A stretch of DNA of 64,000 nucleotides from assembly GCA_963774265.1 (NCBI GenBank), contig CAVZDU010000005.1, positions 64,001-128,000 of the forward strand. The letters run 5' to 3'. The translations under genes were made by a program, and so were the position numbers. Numbering within the stretch: the first letter of the stretch is position 1; each line of letters begins with the position of its first letter. This document shows, one piece after another, positions 52,395-64,000 of this stretch. The notes beneath the pieces are model-generated. The model was not told the origin of the DNA. It did no database searches and saw nothing but the letters and a program-made list of their open reading frames with translations. The DNA is from an uncultured Chloroflexia bacterium. GTDB taxonomy: Bacteria > Chloroflexota > Anaerolineae > CG2-30-64-16.

Positions 52395-54341
52395 TCAGTC
52401 CACCTGGTATGGCACGTCAACAACGATCACGCCGGGGATGAACATGAGCGCCAGCCGCAGGAAGGTGGCGGTCTGGGTGTGCAGCAGGTTATCGAACCAA
52501 TGGCGCGGCACAAACTGGGGCACGACGACGGTGATGACTTCGTTTGGCCGTCGCGCGGCCGCCAGTTGACGGATATACCGCAGCAGCGGTTCGTGCATCA
52601 GCCGGTAGGGCGACTCCACGATCACCAGGCGCACCCCTTCCCCCCACATCTGCCAGCGTTGCTCCACGCGCGCGGCTGAAACCGGATCGATGGAGACGTG
52701 GACCGCGGTCACATCCGAGGATAGGAGCTGCGCGTATTCCAGCGCCGCTAGCGTGCCCTGGTGAACCCCACTGATGGGGAGGATCACACGGTGGCGCTGA
52801 GGAGGCGGCCCGGGATTGAAGTTTTCCAGGGTCAGGCGCGAGGCGAGATGGCGATAGTGCCGGTGGATGCGGAAAAAGAGCAGCACCAGCGCGGGCAAAA
52901 GGATCAGGATGATCCAGGCGCCCTGGCTGAACTTCGTAACGGCAAAAATCACCGTGACGACGACCGTAATGAAAGCACCCAGGGCGTTAATGGCCATTTT
53001 GCTCTGCCAGCCCGTTTCGTACTTCAGGACTGACCCCCGTTCCGCGCGCGTTTCCTGGGATCCCAGTTGACCGGCCTTCCACCAGCGCCGCGACATGCCC
53101 GCTTGCGACAGGCTGAACGAAAGAAACACGCCGATCGCGTACAGTGGAATCAACGCCGTAACGCTGGCCCTGAAGAGGATAATGAATCCGGAGGCGAGCA
53201 GCGCCAGGACGACGATGCCGCGCGAGTAGACCAGCCGGCTGCCCTGGTACGAAAGCTGGCGCGGCAGGAAGCCATCCATAGCCAGCAGTGCACTCAGCCG
53301 CGGGAAGCCGTTGTAGGAGGTGTTGGCGGCCATGATCAAGATGACGGTCGTGCCTGCAATCGTGAGCAGATAGAGCAGACCGCGTGCCCCATCGGCAGTG
53401 CGCGCCACCTGCGAGATGATCGTTTCTTCCTCCGAAGGGATCGCGCCCACCTGGACGGCCAGGAAGGTGATAGCAACCAGGAGCACGGCCAGGATGCCGC
53501 CCATCCAGAGGAGTGTAATGCCGGCGTTACGGCTGCGCGGCTCTTTGAAGGCCGGCACGCCGTTTGCAATCGCCTCGACGCCCGTCAGCGCGGTGGTGCC
53601 GGAGGAAAACGCGCGGAGGATCAGGAAGAGCGTCAGCCCCTGCGGCCCGCCGAGCACCTCCATCGGGGGCGGGTCTGTAACCATACCGAGCGAGCCTGTG
53701 AAGTGACGGAAGAAGCCGATGATCACGGTGGTGAACATCATGATCACGAAGAAATAGGTTGGGATTGCGAAGATCGTGCCCGATTCGCGCACCCCGCGCA
53801 GGTTGATCAGCATGACGAGCAGGGCCAACCCGACGGCCAGCTCCACGCGATACTCGAAAAGCCGCGGGAACGCAGATGTGATCTGCGCGACCCCGGACGA
53901 AATGGAGACTGCGACCGTGAGGATGTAGTCAATCAGCAGCGCTGCGCCTGCGATAGCCGCGGGGGGGTCGCCCAGGTTATCGCGCGCGACAATATACGCG
54001 CCGCCGCCGCCGGGATAGGCGTGGATCGTCTGCTCATAGGACGCCGTGACGATCGCCAGCAGCGCGACGATGCCGAGTGATAACGGAATGGAAAGACCGA
54101 AGGCTATCGTGCCCGCGGCTGCCAGCACCACAAGCATTTCCTGCGTGGCGTACGCGGTCGACGAGAGCGCGTCCGATGCAAACACCGCCAGTCCGACGAT
54201 CTTGCGAATCGCCTGGTGGGGCGCTTCGGCGGTGGCCAGTGGGTCGCCGGTGAGAAGGGTCAGCCACGAGCGCTGCGGTTTTTCGCCGGCCAGCTGGTGA
54301 TGTATGCTGGGTGCGTCATCATCATCAATTTGGGATCGCAT
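52395..54341 (-). CDS. APC-family permease, KimA/YdaO-like potassium transporter
   Basis: FASDALSSTAYA, SYEQTIHAYPGGGGAY, ALTGVEAI, GFPRL, C-terminal SPYR..LHTQTA domain. Confidence 0.9.
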   Translation of the reverse strand: MRSQIDDDDAPSIHHQLAGEKPQRSWLTLLTGDPLATAEAPHQAIRKIVGLAVFASDALSSTAYATQEMLVVLAAAGTIAFGLSIPLSLGIVALLAIVTASYEQTIHAYPGGGGAYIVARDNLGDPPAAIAGAALLIDYILTVAVSISSGVAQITSAFPRLFEYRVELAVGLALLVMLINLRGVRESGTIFAIPTYFFVIMMFTTVIIGFFRHFTGSLGMVTDPPPMEVLGGPQGLTLFLILRAFSSGTTALTGVEAIANGVPAFKEPRSRNAGITLLWMGGILAVLLVAITFLAVQVGAIPSEEETIISQVARTADGARGLLYLLTIAGTTVILIMAANTSYNGFPRLSALLAMDGFLPRQLSYQGSRLVYSRGIVVLALLASGFIILFRASVTALIPLYAIGVFLSFSLSQAGMSRRWWKAGQLGSQETRAERGSVLKYETGWQSKMAINALGAFITVVVTVIFAVTKFSQGAWIILILLPALVLLFFRIHRHYRHLASRLTLENFNPGPPPQRHRVILPISGVHQGTLAALEYAQLLSSDVTAVHVSIDPVSAARVEQRWQMWGEGVRLVIVESPYRLMHEPLLRYIRQLAAARRPNEVITVVVPQFVPRHWFDNLLHTQTATFLRLALMFIPGVIVVDVPYQVD

Positions 54342-54459
54342 GTGACTCAAATCTTGGTGGGATTCTCGGTGTCTGCACTCATGTTAGCACAGCGCGCGGT
54401 GGATGCAAGTGACGGCGGGGTTGTGCTGGAGTCCGAGTTGAATGTTTGCGCGGCGTTGC

Positions 54460-54488
54460 TTGACAAGGACCGCGGCTTCGGGCATAAT
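54460..54488 (+). promoter_or_regulatory. Sigma70-type promoter driving the T-box leader
   Basis: TTGACA-17bp-CATAAT. Confidence 0.75.
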
Positions 54489-54492
54489 CTGG

Positions 54493-56349
54493 TCATAATT
54501 GAATCGCCATTGGCGCAGCCATAAAGCGATGACGGAGGAAAGTAGGCGGGGGGATGACCCCAGAGAAGCCGGGCCCCTGCGAGGGGGCTGAAAGCCCGGC
54601 CGGCCCCAACCCCGATGAAGTTCCCTCCTGAGCGGGCGGGTGAAAGCAATCGTGAAGTAGTCCGCCACGGCAGCCCACCGTTATGGGGCAGCCGGTAAGC
54701 CTGTACAGCCGGGCCGCCGGCCAGAGAGCGGCTTCCCAAGGGAAGCTCGAACCAGGGTGGCACCGCGGAGTGAATACGCGCACTTCGTCCCTCTGCCCGT
54801 TGACAATAAACTGCATAGGCTGCGCAAGCTCACAGCTCACCCAAAGTACCTTCTTACCGTCCTCGTATGCCAGTGTTCCTTCGACGTTCAGTGTTTCTAT
54901 GGCTCTTCGCCGCGTCGCGAAGTCTGATTCGGCGCCTTCCAGACTGACCGCAATCTTAGCGGCGAAGTCTTGCAGGTCCGCTATCTGGTCAGCGGTCAGC
55001 AGGTGCGCCGTCAGGTAGTCGGCCAGGCCGGCGCGCTCCTTCTCCAGCGCGCCTATGGTCGTCTCGATACGGGTGCGGCGCTCGGTCAGCAGGTCCTTGG
55101 AGAAGTCGCCCGAAAGATATAGGTCAAGCAGACGCTCTAGCTGCGTGCGATTCTCGCGGATCAGGTCTTCCACTACCTTCAGCCGCGTTCGTATTGGCGT
55201 ATGCTCGGCTTCTTGTCGCTCGCGGTATGACTCCAGGCCGTCAGCTAGTTTTTGCGGATCAAGCAGGAAGGACCGCACCCAACCCCACACGATAGCGTCG
55301 ACGTCGTCGGCATGCGCTCGCGGGCCGACCTCGCAGGAGTGCGATATCTCACGTTTAGCATGACAGATATAATAGCGCCGCGTCGCGGTCTGCGAATTGG
55401 CGACCAGGCGCGCGCCGCAATGGACGCAGCGCAGCCGACCACTCATTAGATAATCGTAGATCGACTTACGGCGCAGGCTTGTGCGATTGTGGTCCATACG
55501 TACTTGGGCTTGGGCGAAGGTCTCGCGACTTATCAGGGCGGGCACGGTCACGGACAGCGCAGCGTCTTGTGTGAAGTCGCGGTGGTAGCGCCAAAGGCCG
55601 GCGTAGGTCTCGTTACTCAGTATCTTGGATATCGTGCCGCGCGCCCATACGCCGTGCTTGCGCTTCTTGGTGTGTACTTGCCGCGTGTCTTCGTAGGTCG
55701 GCGCACACATGGCGTCCAGCGCGTTCTTAATCGCGGTCATGCTCAGCGCACCGCCCGCGCCGTCGCCGGTCGTATACCACTGGAAGATAAGCCGTACAAT
55801 GCTTGCTTCAGCTTCCTCGATAACCAGCGCAAACTTGCCATTCTCTGACCGATAACGATAGCCATAGGGCGGCCTGCCGTGTACCATGACGCTGCCGGCC
55901 TGGACCTTCAGCACGCGCCCACGCGTCATGCGTTCGTTGATCTTCTCGCGTTCGTATTCGGCTATAGTCGCCTTGATATGCTTGTTTAGCCGGCCTTCGG
56001 GCGAATCGGGATACTCGCCAAGCACGTATTCGATCTGCACGCCAGCCCGCCTTAGCTCTTCTTCGACGACGAGCTGCTTTGCCAGCGACCGCGATAGCCG
56101 GTCGATCTCGCGCACGATCAAGACGTCGAAGTCGCCCGCACGCGCCATGTCACGAACGCGGTTCAGTCGCTCCAGCTCGAAGGCGGCGCCCGACGCGCCG
56201 CGGTCGTCTTCGTGCAGCTCAGCGATGATCTCATAGCCGTGCTCGGTCGCATACTTGCGGCACATCTCCAATTGACCGGCCAGGTTGCGGCCTTCGCGCT
56301 TGGTATCGTCGCTGCTGACTCTGGCGTATAAAACGGATCGCTTGGTCAT
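54493..56349 (-). CDS. Large serine recombinase (integrase); last ~100 codons read into host T-box DNA
   Basis: YARVSS catalytic Ser, DRLSR, AEYEREKINERM, PPYGY recombinase domain, CVHCG..YYIC zinc ribbon, coiled coil; ATG 56349 with AAGGAG RBS. Confidence 0.95.
   Translation of the reverse strand: MTKRSVLYARVSSDDTKREGRNLAGQLEMCRKYATEHGYEIIAELHEDDRGASGAAFELERLNRVRDMARAGDFDVLIVREIDRLSRSLAKQLVVEEELRRAGVQIEYVLGEYPDSPEGRLNKHIKATIAEYEREKINERMTRGRVLKVQAGSVMVHGRPPYGYRYRSENGKFALVIEEAEASIVRLIFQWYTTGDGAGGALSMTAIKNALDAMCAPTYEDTRQVHTKKRKHGVWARGTISKILSNETYAGLWRYHRDFTQDAALSVTVPALISRETFAQAQVRMDHNRTSLRRKSIYDYLMSGRLRCVHCGARLVANSQTATRRYYICHAKREISHSCEVGPRAHADDVDAIVWGWVRSFLLDPQKLADGLESYRERQEAEHTPIRTRLKVVEDLIRENRTQLERLLDLYLSGDFSKDLLTERRTRIETTIGALEKERAGLADYLTAHLLTADQIADLQDFAAKIAVSLEGAESDFATRRRAIETLNVEGTLAYEDGKKVLWVSCELAQPMQFIVNGQRDEVRVFTPRCHPGSSFPWEAALWPAARLYRLTGCPITVGCRGGLLHDCFHPPAQEGTSSGLGPAGLSAPSQGPGFSGVIPPPTFLRHRFMAAPMAIQL
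54521..54795 (+). ncRNA. T-box riboswitch leader (specifier UCC-Ser or UUC-Phe), truncated after the antiterminator
   Basis: AAAGCGATGA..GGAGG-AAAGTAG, CAGAGA, GCTGAA distal loop, GAAGTTCC-CTCC-TGAGC specifier loop, stem II AGTAG, CCGTTA, T-box AACCAGGGTGGCACCGCG (54750-54767), CTTCGTCCCT (54783-54792). Confidence 0.9.
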
Positions 56350-58222: not shown

Positions 58223-58402
58223 TCAGTCTTCGGTCGCTTCTCCTTGATACTTCGGTAACTCGATCTCGCCATTGGTCCAGGCGCTCAGCAGCCGGCGCAA
58301 GACTTGCGCCAGCGTGATATCTTCGGCCTGCGCCTTCTTCTCGGCTCGGTCGAAGAGTTCCTGCGGTAGTCTGAAGCGAAAGCTCTTATCCTTCGGTATC
58401 AT
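58223..58402 (-). CDS. Ribbon-helix-helix (CopG/Arc-like) regulator
   Basis: KSFRFRLPQELFDRAEKKAQAEDITLAQVLRRLL alternating beta-strand plus two helices; own promoter. Confidence 0.75.
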   Translation of the reverse strand: MIPKDKSFRFRLPQELFDRAEKKAQAEDITLAQVLRRLLSAWTNGEIELPKYQGEATED

Positions 58403-58427
58403 GTGTCCCTCATGTGTCACTGAAGGG

Positions 58428-58456
58428 ACTATAACCCAAGGCGACACAGGTGTCAA
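58428..58456 (-). promoter_or_regulatory. Promoter of RHH gene with GTGTC/GACAC boxes
   Basis: Minus strand TTGACA-17bp-TATAGT; TGTGTC at 58402 and 58413, GACACA at 58443, GTGTC at 58450. Confidence 0.65.
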
Positions 58457-58542
58457 ATTGGCGAAGTGCCGCGCAAGTCGGTTGTCAAGGTGCGTAACTG
58501 GCATTATCCCTAGTGATAATGCCAGTTATAAGAAGTTATAGC

Positions 58543-59992: not shown

Positions 59993-60583
59993 CTAGAAGG
60001 TGATAAATGCGAATAGCTTCCTGCTGTCTGGCACGCGCTCGGCATACCAGCAGGCAAGCGCTGCGCTCAGGACGAGATCGTCGTGTACGCCCTCGCGCCA
60101 GGCAGCATAGCTGTCATGGGCCGTTTGCGGGTCGATCTTGACCTTGAAGTTTAGAAGCTCGGTTATCATGGTCGGGCCTAAAGCCAGGCCGTCAGCGACC
60201 TTCAGCCGGCCAGTCTGCAAGACGGTCAGCAGGCCGAAGACTAGATCGCGCTTCGGCACGCGCCAATGACCGGCTTCGCAGACGGGCTTGTCGCCGCCCG
60301 TAATGGTTACGGGTGCGACGGCCAGCTGCGCCTGGTGCAGCAGGTCGACCACGGGCGCGCCTACGCCGGTCGCATCCGCGACGATGATGTAACGCCCGTC
60401 GATCTCTGGACCTTCGACCAGCTCTTTGACGCGCGCGACGATGGCCGGGTATGGCGTGCCTAACTTCGGGCGTTCGATATGCCGCAAGGCGTAGGTTATC
60501 GGCTCGGTCTCCAGGCGCTCGATCACGGTTATAGCCGTGTAGTCGGTCGCTTGGCCCAGGTCCAGCCCGACAAAGTATGTCAT
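59993..60583 (-). CDS. Terminase large subunit nuclease (RNase H-like) domain as a separate gene
   Basis: VGLDLGQATDYTAI, ADATGVGAPV, HDDLVLSAALA; GGAGG RBS 6 nt before ATG 60583. Confidence 0.85.
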   Translation of the reverse strand: MTYFVGLDLGQATDYTAITVIERLETEPITYALRHIERPKLGTPYPAIVARVKELVEGPEIDGRYIIVADATGVGAPVVDLLHQAQLAVAPVTITGGDKPVCEAGHWRVPKRDLVFGLLTVLQTGRLKVADGLALGPTMITELLNFKVKIDPQTAHDSYAAWREGVHDDLVLSAALACWYAERVPDSRKLFAFITF

Positions 60584-60585
60584 AT

Positions 60586-61336
60586 TCAACCTCCGAATAG
60601 CGGCTTGACGTCTGCCGTAATGCTCGACATGACTAGGTCATAGCCGAAGACCTGGTCGACGGTTTCGACAAATTCGCAAAGGTATTCTTGGCGATACCAG
60701 AAGTCGCCAAGCGCGGCGCGCTCTTCTGCCAGGAAGGCCGGCGCGATCGCGCGGGCAGTCGTGCGCTGTGACCTTGACACGCTGCCAGCCGGCGCCGCCA
60801 TTGGTCCAGGTATCGAAGTACCAGCCGCGCTTGCCGAAGGGCGTGCTCAGGCCGACCAGCCGCCCGCCCGATACGGCCAGCATGGGCCGCACGCTGAAGT
60901 ATAGGTCGTCGGGTACGCGCGCGGCTTCGTCCAGGACCAGTAGATTGACGCCACTGTAGCCGCGGATCGTCTCTTCCTTGCCCGGCAGCGATACGATGCG
61001 GCTGCCGTTCTTCAGGTGCAGCGCCAGGGCGCTCTCTGCGGCGCTAGGTGCTTCTGTGGCGAATTGCGCGTAGAATGACATGACCTTGCGGAAAAGCTCG
61101 CCAGACTGGCGCAGCGACGGCGACAGCAGTAAGACCAGCGCAGGCGGGCGATAGATTGCTTCCCACAAGGCCGCGCAGGCGGTCACGGTTGACTTGCCGG
61201 CCTGCCGGGTGCATAACAGCAGCGACCGCGGCGCTCGGCTGCGCAGTAGATCACGCTGCCATTGGTCGGGGTCCAGGCCGGCGCGGGCCATGACCAGCGA
61301 TGGGTCAAGCGCGACGGCCAGGTCGTCAGTCAACAT
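60586..61336 (-). CDS. Terminase large subunit ATPase domain; one frameshift near 60750
   Basis: PDQWQ, CTRQAGKST Walker A, LLVLDEAA Walker B, LSTPFG coupling motif, YRQEYLCEF. Confidence 0.88.
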
Positions 61337-61811
61337 TGCGCAGCGCCTCCGCGACGGCGATACGGGCGTCAGGGTACGGCGCCAGCGCGTCAAGGATCAC
61401 GCCGCGCACGCGCTGCCAGTCGGGCGACTGGACCAGCACGGCGACTTGCACGCGCTCGGCCTCCAGTTCTCCGACGATGCGCCCGACCAGCTCCAGGTTC
61501 TGCCGCGCTTGGCTGACAGCTTGCAGCGCGGTGCGCAGGTCTTGCGCCTCGTAAGCGATTTTCAGTATGTTCATGGTGACGATCTGCAAGCGCTTCATTT
61601 GCGCCAGCAGATCATCGGCCTGCGCGACCTCGCGCGCTTCCTGCGCCTTCGCCAGCGCCGCGGGAAGGTGCTTCTCTTTGTGCCGGCGCAGCGACGTCTC
61701 GATAACGTCGTATAGCGTCGCAATCTCGCGATTTGAGACGCTACCGGCAGCCAGCGCACGGTCGATAGCTTCGCGCTGCGGGTGGGTGCAGATCGTGCAA
61801 GGTCGCGTCAT
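61326..61811 (-). CDS. Putative terminase small subunit (N-terminal CxxC/HTH, helical C-terminus)
   Basis: CTICTHPQREAIDRAL..SNREIATLYDV..SLRRH; overlaps the TerL ATPase start. Confidence 0.65.
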   Translation of the reverse strand: MTRPCTICTHPQREAIDRALAAGSVSNREIATLYDVIETSLRRHKEKHLPAALAKAQEAREVAQADDLLAQMKRLQIVTMNILKIAYEAQDLRTALQAVSQARQNLELVGRIVGELEAERVQVAVLVQSPDWQRVRGVILDALAPYPDARIAVAEALRNVD

Positions 61812-61825
61812 TTTCGTTGCCTCAT

Positions 61826-62146
61826 TTATTCGTCTTCGACCAGCCAGTCGGGCGCCATGCCGGCGAAGGGGTTAGACTCTGCGTCGGGCTTGTGCGCGCC
61901 ATACCTGCGCAGGTGCTTCGCCAGGTTCTCCTGGAGGGCGTACAGTAGCAGCCAGGCGTTATGCGGCGTCATGATGATGCGGGCGTCGACCTGGACCGTC
62001 AACGGGCTAGGCAGCAGCTTGGCGAAGTCGATCACAATCTCAGACTCAGCATGGCTGATAATCGCGTGATTGCTGTAAACCGGCTCCAGCTTCGCAGGTA
62101 GCCAGACGGCGACCTGCGGGGCGCTGCGCTTCTTATGCTTGCTCAT
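61826..62146 (-). CDS. DUF3467-like protein
   Basis: VYSNHAIISH..EIVIDF..ARIIMTP..LLYALQENL pattern. Confidence 0.75.
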   Translation of the reverse strand: MSKHKKRSAPQVAVWLPAKLEPVYSNHAIISHAESEIVIDFAKLLPSPLTVQVDARIIMTPHNAWLLLYALQENLAKHLRRYGAHKPDAESNPFAGMAPDWLVEDE

Positions 62147-62168
62147 ATCTTCGATCTCCTGTGCTTGG

Positions 62169-62200
62169 GCCGGCCTGCGACCTCTTGTCAGCAGGCCGGC
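62169..62200. other. Intergenic hairpin
   Basis: GCCGGCCTGC..GCAGGCCGGC. Confidence 0.55.
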
Positions 62201-62212
62201 GCAGGTGTATGC

Positions 62213-62743
62213 TTAGGCCAGGTCTTCGTCAGTCGGGCCTGGATCGGCTAGGTCGTCGTCACTCAGTTCGGGCCAGCCGGGCGGCTCGGCGTGCGAAGTC
62301 TGCGCTACGGTCGCCCGCGGTTGCATCGCGGGCGGCTGCGCGTCTGGCGCTGGCTGTGCCCTTCTGGTCGGCAGCGCGGCGCGGACCGGCAGCACATCTT
62401 TGACCTTGTTATAGGTCTCGCCGTCGCTGCCGCGCTCGGTGCTGACGACGATCTGGACGCGCTTGTCCAACAGGTCGTCGCTGTCGAAGGTGTAGTCGTC
62501 GGGAATGGCACGCCCGCCAAAGATCGCGGCCTTGGCCCAGGCCCATAGCTTCGCCTTGGGTGACAGCTTGCAGGACGTCCAGCCGGTCAGCGACCGATCG
62601 CTGAAGTCAGGGTCCAGCAGGTCGAAGCGGATCTTAAGCTGACTACCGAATTGCCCTTCGGCCTGCTCTACGTTGCCGACCTGCGCCATATAGACGCCAG
62701 CCGGGATAGGTTCATACTTCGTCTGTTCAATTTTGATTCCCAT
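62213..62743 (-). CDS. Phage-type OB-fold ssDNA-binding-like protein (DUF669-like)
   Basis: YEPIPAGVYMAQV..LKIRF..DDLLDKRVQIVV..YNKV, Pro/Ala linker and acidic tail. Confidence 0.65.
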   Translation of the reverse strand: MGIKIEQTKYEPIPAGVYMAQVGNVEQAEGQFGSQLKIRFDLLDPDFSDRSLTGWTSCKLSPKAKLWAWAKAAIFGGRAIPDDYTFDSDDLLDKRVQIVVSTERGSDGETYNKVKDVLPVRAALPTRRAQPAPDAQPPAMQPRATVAQTSHAEPPGWPELSDDDLADPGPTDEDLA

Positions 62744-62788
62744 TGCGATTGCTCCTAAGTGTGCTGTGTGCCTTGCGGCTTTGGGTTG

Positions 62789-62852
62789 CGTCTGCGTGTG
62801 TGCGGTCCAGGCACGTCTGCGTTTGTGCGGTCCAGGCACGTCTGCGTTTGTG
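62789..62852. repeat. 25-bp tandem repeat x2.5
   Basis: CGTCTGCGTKTGTGCGGTCCAGGCA at 62789, 62814, partial at 62839. Confidence 0.9.
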
Positions 62853-62855
62853 TTC

Positions 62856-63206
62856 TCAGGCGGCAGCCTCCAAGTCGGCTACATACAGCGTGCCGGTCGT
62901 CGGGTCGCCCCCGACGATGCGCAGCCCGCGCTCGGCCAGGTACTCGCTCGGCGTGAAGTCCCACGATAACGGGATATGCAGCGGTTGCGCGTTCGGGTCG
63001 CTGCGCCAGGACAGCCGGCGCAGGTAGTCGAGCAGCTCGGCCTTATGCTCGGCCAGGCCGGCGCGCAGATCGTCGTCTATGGCGCCCTTCGGCGCTTCGA
63101 CATACAGTCTCTCGCCGCGCGCGGCAAGCCCGATTTGCCGGCCTTCGCACTCGTTTAGCAGGTCAGATAGCTCTTGATAATGTCGCTTGTAAGAAGGCAT
63201 TGTCAT
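62856..63206 (-). CDS. TubC N-terminal docking-domain-like small protein
   Basis: IGLAARGERLYVEAPKGAIDDDLRAGLAEHKAELLDYL. Confidence 0.6.
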   Translation of the reverse strand: MTMPSYKRHYQELSDLLNECEGRQIGLAARGERLYVEAPKGAIDDDLRAGLAEHKAELLDYLRRLSWRSDPNAQPLHIPLSWDFTPSEYLAERGLRIVGGDPTTGTLYVADLEAAA

Positions 63207-64000
63207 AGCTCGAAGACCTCCACTTCGACAGGCGCGACTACCTGGTCGTCAGTCTGTGCCGTTATGCCGTCGCTGCCGTTTGTGCCGTTAATATAGAGAG
63301 TATCGCCTTGGGTCTTCTCCAGTTCTTCAGGTATCGGCAGCCCATAGGCGACCAGCCAGCCGACAAGGTCGGCCGCGCTGATATGCCAGCCCTTCGCTTT
63401 CGACGTGCGCTCGGCCTTCAGGCGCATCTTGCCCAGGACGCGACCGACGCGGCGCGACGTTACGCTATCCGGGTCCATGTCGGCCTCGATTTCCTCGACT
63501 ACTTCCTTCGCGGCCTGCGTGATGGCTGAAGTCTTGAAGGTAAATGCCTTCTCGACAGTCTCCTTATTAACGGCACTAATGGCATTGGCGGCATAACGGC
63601 ACAAGGCGCGAATGACGATGGCGGTCAGGTCGCCGATCTCCAGATCGACGCGCTCTTCCTGGTAGGCTAGGCTCAGGGCTTCGATGCGGTCCCATAAGCC
63701 GGCTGTGCCGTTATCGTCCAGCCATAAGGCGACGGCCAGGATCGCGCGCCAAGGCTCCAGGTTGCGACCAGTCAGGCGGCCGCGCTCGTTAACCAGCGTC
63801 TCATAGCGCGGCAGCTCAGGCAGCCGGCTCAGGCCCAAGGCCCATAGATCGTCAAGTAAGCTGCGCCGGTCGTGCGGCCATAGCTCATAGTCCAGCGGGT
63901 CAGCGTTCGCCCGGTAGCGGTCGGGTGTGCGGATTAACGGCACGATGATTGTGCGGCTTGCCAGGATTGCGTCGGGTAGCTTAGTTGCGCTGAAGAGACG
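63203..64000 (-). CDS. C-terminal part of a primase/helicase-like replication protein (DUF3631-like), truncated by window edge
   Basis: LPDAILASRTIIVPL, GRNLEPWRAILAVA, winged-helix-like TSRRVGRVLGKM..KGW. Confidence 0.6.
   Translation of the reverse strand, partial: RLFSATKLPDAILASRTIIVPLIRTPDRYRANADPLDYELWPHDRRSLLDDLWALGLSRLPELPRYETLVNERGRLTGRNLEPWRAILAVALWLDDNGTAGLWDRIEALSLAYQEERVDLEIGDLTAIVIRALCRYAANAISAVNKETVEKAFTFKTSAITQAAKEVVEEIEADMDPDSVTSRRVGRVLGKMRLKAERTSKAKGWHISAADLVGWLVAYGLPIPEELEKTQGDTLYINGTNGSDGITAQTDDQVVAPVEVEVFEL

What the first reader, a model, noticed from the sequence alone, without database searches (positions are those of the whole stretch)
54460..56349. Serine-integrase element inserted inside a T-box riboswitch, orphaning it and giving the integrase a host-encoded C-terminus
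Seen: a canonical promoter and a T-box complete through the antiterminator (..CTTCGTCCCTCTG). The expected complementary terminator arm, U-tract and regulated gene are absent; the 3' end of a convergent large serine recombinase follows instead. The integrase has no stop before the junction and runs ~100 codons antisense through the T-box to 54493. Known: T-boxes precede aminoacyl-tRNA synthetase or amino-acid genes, and a UGGC bulge suits a G73 tRNA, favouring UCC/Ser over UUC/Phe. Inferred: attB lies in the terminator/sequestrator loop (~54797). Integration would uncouple a possibly essential gene from its promoter and riboswitch, aim the host transcript antisense at the integrase, and change the integrase C-terminus between integrated and excised states. 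That could be a regulatory switch.
Basis: partly seen in the sequence, partly recalled or inferred. Interest (0 to 1): 0.88.

Follow-up and report, generated by a model that had tools for sequence, protein, structure and literature searches.

The report
Mobile element splits pheS T-box
A 13-kb phage-like mobile element has inserted, through its own serine integrase, exactly into the terminator hairpin loop of the RNA switch (T-box) that normally controls the essential phenylalanyl-tRNA synthetase genes, cutting the switch off from the genes it regulates.

Summary
Window 54460-54795 carries a near-consensus promoter and a full-length T-box leader (Infernal 69.9 bits, E 4.8e-15, below Rfam's cut-off of 93). 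It ends at the antiterminator and runs straight into the 3' end of a convergent large serine recombinase gene.

The missing half lies 13.1 kb downstream, outside the window at about 67893. There the terminator 3' arm, the U-tract and pheS-pheT follow a second copy of the 3-bp core CTG. The joined flanks align colinearly with the uninterrupted pheS leaders of 8 related Chloroflexota genomes and refold into the terminator.

- **Target:** the attB is the terminator loop of the pheST T-box. The specifier is UUC (Phe), not Ser.
- **Element:** 13,097 bp, phage-like, single copy, and its integrase was not found in the other 7 genomes of the genus.
- **Integrase tail:** the 99-codon host-encoded tail is real as an ORF. 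The excised form would be 535 aa, like 14 homologues (528-566 aa). Similar antisense frames stay open for 33-196 codons in element-free relatives, so the tail looks passive.
- **pheST expression:** it must now start from a weak promoter-like site at the element's right end. This is inferred.

A reversible regulatory switch remains untested, because no sequencing runs were listed.

The parts
52395..54350 (-). Host amino-acid permease gene, the left neighbour of the T-box
   Evidence: PF13520 AA_permease_2, E 7.7e-30
54460..54488 (+). Host promoter-like site of the pheS leader (TTGACA-17-CATAAT)
   Evidence: 11 of 12 consensus matches; the only site in 54300-55000
54520..54795 (+). T-box leader of pheST, complete through the antiterminator. 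It is now cut off from its terminator 3' arm. The specifier is UUC and the bulge is UGGC.
   Evidence: RF00230, 69.9 bits, E 4.8e-15, model 1-219. Orthologous to the leaders in front of pheS in relatives.
54793..54795 (.). Left copy of the 3-bp core CTG shared by both junctions (crossover region). The right copy lies outside the window at about 67893-67895 (L011 14893-14895).
   Evidence: Junction comparison. The joined flanks align with empty sites in 8 relatives.
54796..54830 (.). Left end of the element, carrying the right half-site of the reconstructed attP (TATTGTCAAYGGG in inverted orientation)
   Evidence: Dyad symmetry at 14 of the 16 inner positions in the reconstructed attP
54493..56349 (-). 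Large serine recombinase (integrase), 618 aa as integrated. The first 519 residues are element-encoded and the last 99 are read antisense from the host T-box.
   Evidence: Pfam PF00239, PF07508 and PF13408; phrog_95 integrase, 2.7e-87; C-terminal alignment with 14 homologues
58223..58504 (-). Arc/CopG-like small regulator of the element
   Evidence: phrog_6506 Arc-like repressor, 1.6e-8; weak PF12441 hit
59993..61393 (-). Terminase large subunit in two ORFs (N part 60638-61393, C part 59993-60589); the frame changes twice
   Evidence: phrog_7579, 4.9e-54; PF03237, 8.8e-10; phrog_27743, 3e-36; PF17289; three-frame reading
61826..62839 (-). DUF3467 protein (61826-62146) and DUF669/SSB-like protein (62213-62839)
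   Evidence: PF11950, 1e-14; PF05037, 7.3e-4; phrog_2300, 2.8e-13
63203..64000 (-). 3' part of an 810-aa DUF3854 (toprim/primase-like) gene. It runs off the window and its full extent is L011 10203-12635.
   Evidence: PF12965 DUF3854, 8.7e-22; weak phrog_6088 DNA primase hit

Best explanation
A 13.1-kb phage-derived integrative element has integrated by serine-integrase recombination into the loop of the intrinsic terminator hairpin of the pheS-pheT T-box leader of a Chloroflexota genome.

The element carries:
- a serine integrase at the left end and a tyrosine recombinase at the right end;
- a DUF3854 primase-like gene and an SSB-like gene;
- a terminase;
- an Arc-like regulator.

**Shown**
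- The promoter, Stem I with the UUC specifier, and the antiterminator stay on the left.
- The terminator 3' arm, the U-tract, pheS and pheT lie 13.1 kb to the right.
- Only 3 bp (CTG) are shared by the two junctions.
- The reconstructed attP is an imperfect inverted repeat.
- The reconstructed attB is the terminator hairpin itself, a naturally symmetric and conserved sequence.

**Inferred**
- The insertion is recent and ordinary, and its regulatory effects are by-products.
- pheST is no longer under tRNA-Phe control. It is transcribed from a promoter-like site at the element's right end, because all element genes point the other way.
- The host leader promoter now reads, unterminated and constitutively, antisense into int.
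- attP lies at the very 3' end of the int ORF, so integration swaps a 16-residue tail for 99 residues of untranslated-leader antisense. That tail is probably without selected function. At most it damps integrase, together with the convergent transcription.
For: **The insertion**
- The T-box match is full length.
- 8 relatives have the same leader followed by a terminator, and 7 of these 8 showed a pheS-like ORF within the fetched stretch.
- The genome's own pheS, at C5:132017, is the only copy found and has the pheS Pfam domains. pheT follows it.
- The right junction was read directly.
- The joined flanks align colinearly with all 8 leaders. They fold into a hairpin of -20.2 kcal/mol followed by a U-tract, against -19.3 to -31.7 in relatives. 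Neither junction as it stands refolds the terminator (-10.9 each).

**The recombination sites**
- The shared core is 3 bp, and the attP dyad matches at 14 of the 16 inner positions.
- The 47-bp attB window is 34-41 of 47 identical in the 8 relatives.

**The element**
- Its integrase was not found in 0 of the 7 other genomes of the genus, and it is single copy in this genome.
- The outward promoter-like site TTGCCC-17-TACAAT is the only + strand site between the element's last gene and pheS.

**The specifier**
- The register was calibrated on the thrS and Val leaders.

**The integrase tail**
- The excised form would be 535 aa, against 528-566 aa in 14 homologues, and homology ends at the crossover.
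- In the 8 element-free relatives the same antisense frame stays open for 33-196 codons.
Against: - No reads or RNA data could be laid, so integration state, transcription starts and excision are all unobserved.
- The outward promoter is only a 9-of-12 match. 11 such sites occur in the 13.7 kb scanned, against 3.1 expected, so it is weak evidence.
- The attP dyad centre lies 1 bp to the left of the CT of the shared core, which is not the textbook geometry.
- The terminator loop is 2 nt longer here than in most relatives.
- The assembly has frameshifts in pheT and the terminase, so base-level details may be wrong. These include the tail length.
- The genome is 84% complete, so a second pheS cannot be excluded.
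- None of the 27 homologue loci scanned with Rfam at about 50% identity or less lies beside a T-box, so this target is seen only once.
Confidence: 0.68

Rival explanations
1. Reversible regulatory switch (active lysogeny). The element excises and reintegrates without killing the cell. This toggles pheST between tRNA-Phe-sensing T-box control (excised) and element-driven constitutive expression (integrated). The host leader's antisense transcription sets the integrase level.
For: - The integrase ORF is intact over its whole homologous length.
- Both junctions are intact, and precise excision would rebuild the terminator.
- The element has no capsid or tail genes recognisable, as expected for a non-lytic element.
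- A strong convergent host promoter faces int.
Against: - There is no evidence of excision.
- No directionality factor was recognised.
- The insertion is seen in one genome only.
- With the terminator removed, the T-box cannot modulate read-through, so the antisense RNA would not report amino-acid status (inference).
- The gene is essential and must be expressed in both states, which leaves little to switch.
Confidence: 0.12
2. The C-terminal swap is itself functional. The 99-residue host-encoded tail inactivates or destabilises the integrase once it is integrated, and the 16-residue native tail is restored only on the circular form. This would be a self-limiting circuit like integration-dependent immunity.
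For: - attP lies inside the int ORF, at the boundary of the conserved region.
- The integrated form (618 aa) is longer than all 14 homologues (528-566 aa).
- There is a precedent for att sites inside ORFs changing protein stability (PMC3694055; passages read).
Against: - Open antisense frames of 33-196 codons occur in relatives without the element.
- Another antisense frame in this genome's own leader is open for 147 codons.
- The tail has no Pfam match.
- Neither tail ends in the Ala-Ala type of degradation tag (motif recalled, not tested with a tool).
- Homologue tails beyond the conserved block are not conserved either.
Confidence: 0.1
3. The tyrosine recombinase at the right end made the insertion, not the serine integrase. 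Alternatively, the region is two nested elements.
For: A tyrosine recombinase gene (PF00589, 9.2e-24) is the first gene inside the right junction.
Against: - Only 3 bp are shared between the junctions.
- No longer direct repeat flanks the element.
- The attP half-sites form a short inverted repeat that abuts the serine integrase gene, as in serine systems.
- Tyrosine integrases usually need a 6-8 bp identical overlap (established knowledge).
Confidence: 0.05
4. Assembly artefact: a chimeric join places the integrase next to the T-box.
For: The assembly has base-level errors, and no reads could be checked.
Against: - Both junctions lie on one contig, 13.1 kb apart.
- They share the same 3-bp core.
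- Their outer flanks join into a leader colinear with 8 relatives, base for base, through the terminator. A random misjoin would not do this.
Confidence: 0.02

Closest known systems
Large-serine-recombinase prophages and elements that split host genes: Listeria A118/phi10403S in comK, SPbeta in spsM, the skin element in sigK
   Same: - A large serine integrase with resolvase, recombinase and zinc-ribbon domains.
- Simple att sites with a very short crossover identity.
- An insertion that interrupts a host functional unit, which precise excision would rebuild.

A118 in comK is taken from PMC3556126 (passages read). Active lysogeny at comK is taken from the PMC7397523 search listing. SPbeta and skin are recalled.
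   Different: - The target here is not a coding sequence. It is the terminator loop of a T-box leader.
- The gene behind it is essential, so it cannot simply be switched off.
- No excision has been observed.
Integration-dependent immunity of mycobacteriophages (Broussard and Hatfull)
   Same: attP lies inside an ORF, so the viral and integrated genomes encode proteins with different C-termini (PMC3694055; passages read).
   Different: - There the ORF is the repressor, the enzyme is a tyrosine integrase, and the change removes a degradation tag.
- Here the ORF is the serine integrase itself and the change adds 99 residues.
- No tag is evident.
Prophages that change host regulation through where they sit: a pneumococcal prophage altering a non-coding RNA, and a phage altering the respiratory strategy of its host
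   Same: Integration alters the regulation of neighbouring host genes or RNAs rather than destroying a protein. Source: search listings and the starts of abstracts only, for 10.1101/2022.09.21.508813 and PMC6814406.
   Different: - Different RNAs and mechanisms.
- Neither is a T-box or a riboswitch-type leader, as far as the listings show.
- The papers were not read in full.
Integration into tRNA and other structured-RNA genes (tRNA, tmRNA, ffs)
   Same: The target is a conserved sequence with built-in dyad symmetry, because it encodes an RNA hairpin. This gives a wide and stable choice of hosts. ffs as a target is taken from the abstract of PMC12540744 in the search listing. tRNA and tmRNA are established knowledge.
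   Different: - Those elements usually carry a copy of the displaced RNA end, so the gene stays whole.
- Here the leader is left broken.
- The element appears to supply a promoter instead (inferred).

Membership tests
T-box leader (Rfam RF00230) | Score at or above Rfam's gathering cut-off (93 bits) | tested here: not met
   69.9 bits, E 4.8e-15, full model 1-219. The cut-off is a curation threshold. 7 of the 9 T-boxes in this genome fall below it. Of the 6 others below it, 5 precede aaRS or amino-acid genes, and the sixth (L055) gave only a sub-cut-off PALP match.
T-box leader (Rfam RF00230) | Conserved T-box sequence with a UGGN bulge in an antiterminator | tested here: met
   GGGUGGCACCGCG lies within the aligned antiterminator. 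It is conserved in 8 orthologues. N=C does not match the A73 of tRNA-Phe.
T-box leader (Rfam RF00230) | Specifier-loop codon that matches the regulated gene | tested here: met
   The loop reads GAA-G-UUC-C. The same register gives ACC before thrS and GUC before a class I (I/L/M/V) synthetase in this genome. The gene behind the leader is pheS.
T-box leader (Rfam RF00230) | A competing terminator (or sequestrator) directly after the antiterminator, followed by an aaRS or amino-acid gene | tested here: not met
   This is not met in the DNA as it stands. It is met only when the flanks of the element are joined, and it is met in 8 of 8 relatives. The leader is therefore a member by descent, but a broken one.
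Large serine recombinase (phage-type serine integrase) | N-terminal resolvase catalytic domain, plus a recombinase domain, plus a zinc ribbon with a coiled-coil insert | tested here: met
   PF00239 94.8 bits, PF07508 49.5 bits and PF13408 39.2 bits, all above their cut-offs. phrog_95 integrase, 2.7e-87.
Large serine recombinase (phage-type serine integrase) | Short att sites, with identity between attP and attB limited to the central dinucleotide region, and attP an imperfect inverted repeat next to int | tested here: met
   The shared core is 3 bp, and the dyad matches at 14 of the 16 inner positions. The dyad centre is 1 bp off the CT of the core, which remains unexplained.
Large serine recombinase (phage-type serine integrase) | Catalyses attP x attB recombination | not testable with these tools
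   This needs an in vitro or in vivo assay.
Active-lysogeny / regulatory-switch prophage | Reversible, non-lytic excision that restores the host function under defined conditions | not testable with these tools
   No sequencing run was listed. Only the potential is shown: the joined flanks rebuild the terminator.
Integration-dependent immunity | attP inside the repressor ORF, so that integration removes a C-terminal degradation tag | tested here: not met
   attP is inside the integrase ORF, not a repressor ORF. Integration lengthens the product from 535 to 618 aa. No tag-like end was seen (tag motif recalled).

The most novel reading that the evidence does not exclude
The element is a reversible switch that has taken over control of an essential aminoacyl-tRNA synthetase operon.

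- **Integrated:** it replaces tRNA-sensing T-box attenuation of pheST with its own outward promoter. It also uses the orphaned, now unterminated host leader transcript and a host-encoded 99-residue tail to hold its integrase down.
- **Excised:** the riboswitch and the native integrase are both restored.

Because the attB is a conserved T-box terminator hairpin, T-box leaders would be a new class of attachment site, comparable to tRNA genes.
Probability: 0.1. Interest if true: 0.75.

Novelty: new variant of a known kind. Interest (0 to 1): 0.5.

Why it matters
Site-specific integration into tRNA genes, tmRNA genes and coding genes is well known. I found no report of a T-box leader, or any riboswitch-type terminator, used as an attachment site. 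The searches were made, with 0 papers. They cover only the held open-access library.

**Target choice.** The case shows that an attenuator hairpin can serve as attB. It is symmetric because it is a hairpin. It is conserved because one arm is the T-box sequence itself.

**A natural experiment.** An essential synthetase operon has been cut from its tRNA sensor and has evidently survived. This gives a direct way to ask how much T-box control of pheST matters for fitness.

**Integrase tools.** The integrase and its roughly 47-bp sites could be tested like other serine integrases.

**Limits.** It is a single occurrence in one metagenome-assembled genome. All regulatory consequences are inferred.

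Tried and rejected
**Searches that gave nothing**
- The default Rfam scan of the whole window found nothing. The T-box appears only with the E-value threshold.
- A search for the terminator arm by its expected complement gave only chance hits. The arm here differs by a mismatch, and it was found through pheS instead.
- Integrase homologues were fetched from three sources:
  - 9 places in 6 other genomes of the same order, at 45-54% identity;
  - 10 named MAG loci;
  - 14 metagenome loci.
  - Rfam scans of 9, 10 and 8 of these found no T-box beside any, and only one tRNA, next to a 26%-identity relative.
  - 6 short metagenome loci (L041, L046-L048, L050, L051) were not scanned.
- Viral contigs held no relative of the integrase and no match to a degenerate attP pattern.
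- The phage collection held only relatives below 30% identity among the 12 records listed, all annotated as integrase or recombinase.
- Sequencing runs: none was listed, and no RNA holder was listed. Reads were therefore never laid.
- Supplementary files of papers were not consulted.

**Ideas considered and dropped**
- Ser as the specifier, rejected.
- A substitute terminator formed with element sequence at the left junction. None was found.
- Special structure in the presumed new pheS 5' leader. The z-score was 0.24, so nothing stands out.
- An 11-bp inverted repeat (GGCGCGTTTTG) between the element's right end and the host terminator arm. Only 3 of 2000 shuffles reached it. I read it as two ordinary terminator-like GC-stem plus U-tract sequences, one of them at the integrase stop codon of the excised form, and not as a device. 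This judgement is post hoc.
- Literature on an attP inside a serine integrase gene. Searches gave nothing specific. My recollection that phiRv1 has such an arrangement could not be checked and is not used.
Full report
**What is at the coordinates**

The window is G000:C5:64001-128000 of a 5.5-Mb, 10-contig genome with about 62% G+C. Named relatives of its integrase are Chloroflexota MAGs.

- **Promoter.** A near-consensus promoter-like site, TTGACA-17-CATAAT, sits at 54460-54488 on the + strand.
- **T-box.** A full-length match to the T-box model RF00230 follows at 54520-54795: 69.9 bits, E 4.8e-15, model positions 1-219. The score is below Rfam's gathering cut-off of 93, which is why the default scan was blank. 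Nine T-boxes were found in the genome, and 7 of them are below the cut-off.
- **Junction.** The match ends with the 3' strand of the antiterminator. Three bases later the sequence is no longer host. No terminator-like site follows, and no complement of the antiterminator strand is nearby.
- **Integrase.** On the minus strand an ORF runs from 56403 to the stop at 54493-54495, with its likely start at 56349. It has the three domains of a large serine recombinase.

**Where the other half is**

The same leader occurs in 27 of 40 related genomes searched.

- In the 8 I read, the leader is followed by a GC-rich hairpin and a U-tract. In 7 of those 8, a gene beginning like pheS follows within the stretch fetched.
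- The genome's own pheS lies at C5:132017, 13.2 kb to the right and outside the window. It is the only copy found by tblastn.
- Pfam confirms pheS (tRNA-synt_2d, 2.3e-88) and pheT behind it (B3_4, B5 and tRNA_bind domains).
- About 120 nt upstream of pheS lie the terminator 3' arm and the U-tract, preceded by CTG and then by foreign sequence.

The two junctions share only CTG, at window 54793-54795 and at L011 14893-14895 (about window 67893-67895).

Joining the outer flanks gives a leader that aligns colinearly with all 8 relatives through the terminator and into pheS. It refolds into a hairpin of -20.2 kcal/mol before the U-tract. The relatives' hairpins range from -19.3 to -31.7 kcal/mol, and each junction as it stands gives only -10.9.

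The terminator loop is 2 nt longer here than in most relatives. I cannot tell whether that is natural variation or a base-calling error.

A chimeric assembly join would not produce two reciprocal junctions of this kind.

**The element**

It is 13,097 bp between the two core copies, at window 54796 to about 67892. It is single copy in the genome. Recognisable ORFs all lie on the minus strand.

| Gene, from right to left | Evidence |
|---|---|
| Tyrosine recombinase | PF00589, 9.2e-24 |
| 810-aa DUF3854, toprim/primase-like | PF12965, 8.7e-22 |
| TubC_N-like small protein | |
| DUF669/SSB-like protein | |
| DUF3467 protein | |
| Possible helix-turn-helix protein | sub-cut-off Pfam hit only |
| Terminase large subunit, in two ORFs | phrog_7579 4.9e-54; phrog_27743 3e-36 |
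| Several unknowns, one with an HExxH motif | motif read |
| Arc-like regulator | |
| Serine integrase | |

- No capsid, portal or tail gene was recognised. It therefore looks like a small phage-derived or satellite-like island rather than a full prophage.
- A perfect 12-of-12 promoter with an extended -10 points leftwards into the element from its right end.
- The integrase was not found in any of the 7 other genomes of the genus. It was found at about 45-54% identity in 6 other genomes of the family. The insertion therefore looks recent.

**Which enzyme, and what the sites look like**

- The identity between the junctions is 3 bp, and no longer direct repeat flanks the element.
- The reconstructed attP is an imperfect inverted repeat with half-sites TATTGTCAAYGGG. 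It matches at 14 of the 16 inner positions and abuts and overlaps the 3' end of the serine integrase gene.
- This is the pattern of serine integrases, not of tyrosine integrases. The latter point is established knowledge.
- The dyad centre lies 1 bp to the left of the CT of the core, which I cannot explain.
- The reconstructed attB is the terminator hairpin, so it has dyad symmetry by nature. One of its arms is the conserved T-box 3' strand. Over a 47-bp window it is 34-41 of 47 identical in the 8 relatives, which belong to four genera.
- That is the same logic usually given for tRNA genes as targets.

**Which amino acid**

The gene is pheS.

- The specifier loop reads GAA-G-UUC-C in all 9 orthologues.
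- In this same genome the leader before a ThrRS gene reads GAA-G-ACC-C. The leader before a class I (I/L/M/V) synthetase reads GAA-A-GUC-G.
- The register is therefore GAA-N-codon, which gives UUC, Phe.
- The UGGC bulge does not pair with the discriminator. tRNA-Phe has A73, and the identical tRNA-Phe occurs in genera whose leaders have UGGU.
- The Val leader also has UGGC, while all three tRNA-Val have A73.
- The mismatch is present in the 5 other leaders of this genus that I read, all element-free. It therefore has nothing to do with the insertion.

**The integrase C-terminus**

- The first 519 residues are element-encoded, and residue 519 (Q) is encoded by the core.
- In the integrated state 99 further codons are read from the antisense strand of the T-box, giving 618 aa.
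- On a circularised element the frame would continue into the element's right end and stop after 16 codons, giving 535 aa.
- Fourteen homologues are 528-566 aa long. Their similarity to this protein ends within a few residues of the crossover, and their last 5-40 residues are not conserved among themselves. attP therefore sits at the boundary of the folded protein.
- The long tail is not beyond chance. In the 8 element-free relatives the same antisense frame stays open for 33, 33, 34, 56, 73, 76, 160 and 196 codons. In this genome's own leader another antisense frame stays open for 147 codons.
- The tail has no Pfam match.
- I read it as a passive consequence of a high-G+C leader.

**How it most likely works now (inferred)**

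- All recognisable element genes point away from pheS, so read-through from them cannot serve it.
- Between the first element gene and pheS, the only + strand promoter-like site is TTGCCC-17-TACAAT at L011 14805-14833, inside the element. It is only a 9-of-12 match, and such matches are not rare: 11 in 13.7 kb against 3.1 expected.
- If it is used, pheST is expressed without tRNA-Phe sensing.
- On the other side, the host leader promoter still fires. With the terminator's 3' arm gone there is nothing for the tRNA decision to act on. Transcription should then run constitutively into int in antisense.
- Together with the odd tail, this may lower integrase and stabilise the insertion.
- Before integration the same outward promoter would read across attP, also antisense to int. 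Convergent transcription over the int 3' end is therefore not unique to the integrated state.

**What is known**

- Serine-integrase prophages that split genes and act as switches are established. A118 in comK is taken from PMC3556126 (passages). The active-lysogeny papers were seen only in the listing.
- att sites inside ORFs that change a protein's C-terminus are established for repressors of mycobacteriophages (PMC3694055; passages).
- Prophages that alter a non-coding RNA or neighbouring regulation are in print (listings; not read).
- I found no paper on a T-box leader as an attachment site. Searches gave nothing relevant in their listings, and one search gave 0 papers. These searches cover only the held library.

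**Caveats**

- pheT changes frame twice within about 130 nt, and so does the terminase gene.
- Several genes behind other T-boxes are in pieces.
- Together with 84% estimated completeness in only 10 contigs, this suggests a long-read assembly with indel errors. The split terminase, the tail length and the 2-nt loop difference should not be over-read.
- No sequencing run was listed, so nothing about excision or expression could be tested.

**Verdict**

- **Real:** the insertion, its target and the broken T-box.
- **Corrected:** the amino-acid assignment. It is Phe, not Ser.
- **Not supported:** a selected function for the tail.
- **Open:** the switch idea.

It is a new variant of a known kind of event, of moderate interest.

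Noticed in passing
window 54755-54768; L054 (G000:C8:204000-206400); tRNAs at C10:222087-222161, C1:935210, C1:1423399 and C2:450975: The T-box bulge is UGGC in the pheS leader, in this genome and in the 5 other leaders of the genus that I read, and also in this genome's Val leader. tRNA-Phe and all three tRNA-Val have A73, so the usual bulge-discriminator pairing would be a C-A mismatch. Other genera with the identical tRNA-Phe have UGGU.
   Followed up: partly
L011 16099-18000 (pheT, outside the window); window 59993-61393 (terminase): pheT and the terminase large subunit each change reading frame twice within a short stretch. Genes behind other T-boxes (L055, L056, L058, L059) are also in pieces. 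These are probably indel errors of the assembly rather than pseudogenes.
   Followed up: partly
L011 14843-14853 and 14904-14914 (about window 67843-67914, outside the window): An 11-bp perfect inverted repeat (GGCGCGTTTTG) links the element's right end to the host terminator 3' arm plus U-tract. On the element side it overlaps the integrase stop codon of the excised form. Only 3 of 2000 shuffles reached this length. It pairs in the predicted fold of the presumed new pheS leader.
   Followed up: partly
window 58495-58535 and 63167-63199; L011 14716-14751: An operator-like palindrome (core ATTATCnCTAGnGATAAT) with a shared flank occurs three times in the element, each time at the head of a gene block. 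One copy overlaps the 12-of-12 leftward promoter. These are possibly binding sites of the Arc-like regulator.
   Followed up: no
window 63255-63305 and 63553-63603: A 51-nt inverted repeat, 82% complementary and 247 nt apart, is rich in GCCGTT-like iterons. It lies inside the 3' part of the DUF3854 primase-like gene and may be the element's replication origin.
   Followed up: no
L017/L020 (G023:C126) and L015/L021 (G052:C129): Homologues of the integrase occur as tandem pairs of serine recombinase genes in two related genomes.
   Followed up: no
G000:C1:935210-935515: A tRNA-Val(GAC) gene ends 8 nt before the start of the thrS T-box leader, so the two may be co-transcribed.
   Followed up: no
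window 54783-54800 versus relatives L002-L010: The reconstructed terminator loop of this genome is 2 nt (CT) longer than in most relatives, right next to the crossover core. It could be natural variation, a base-call error or a trace of the recombination event.
   Followed up: partly
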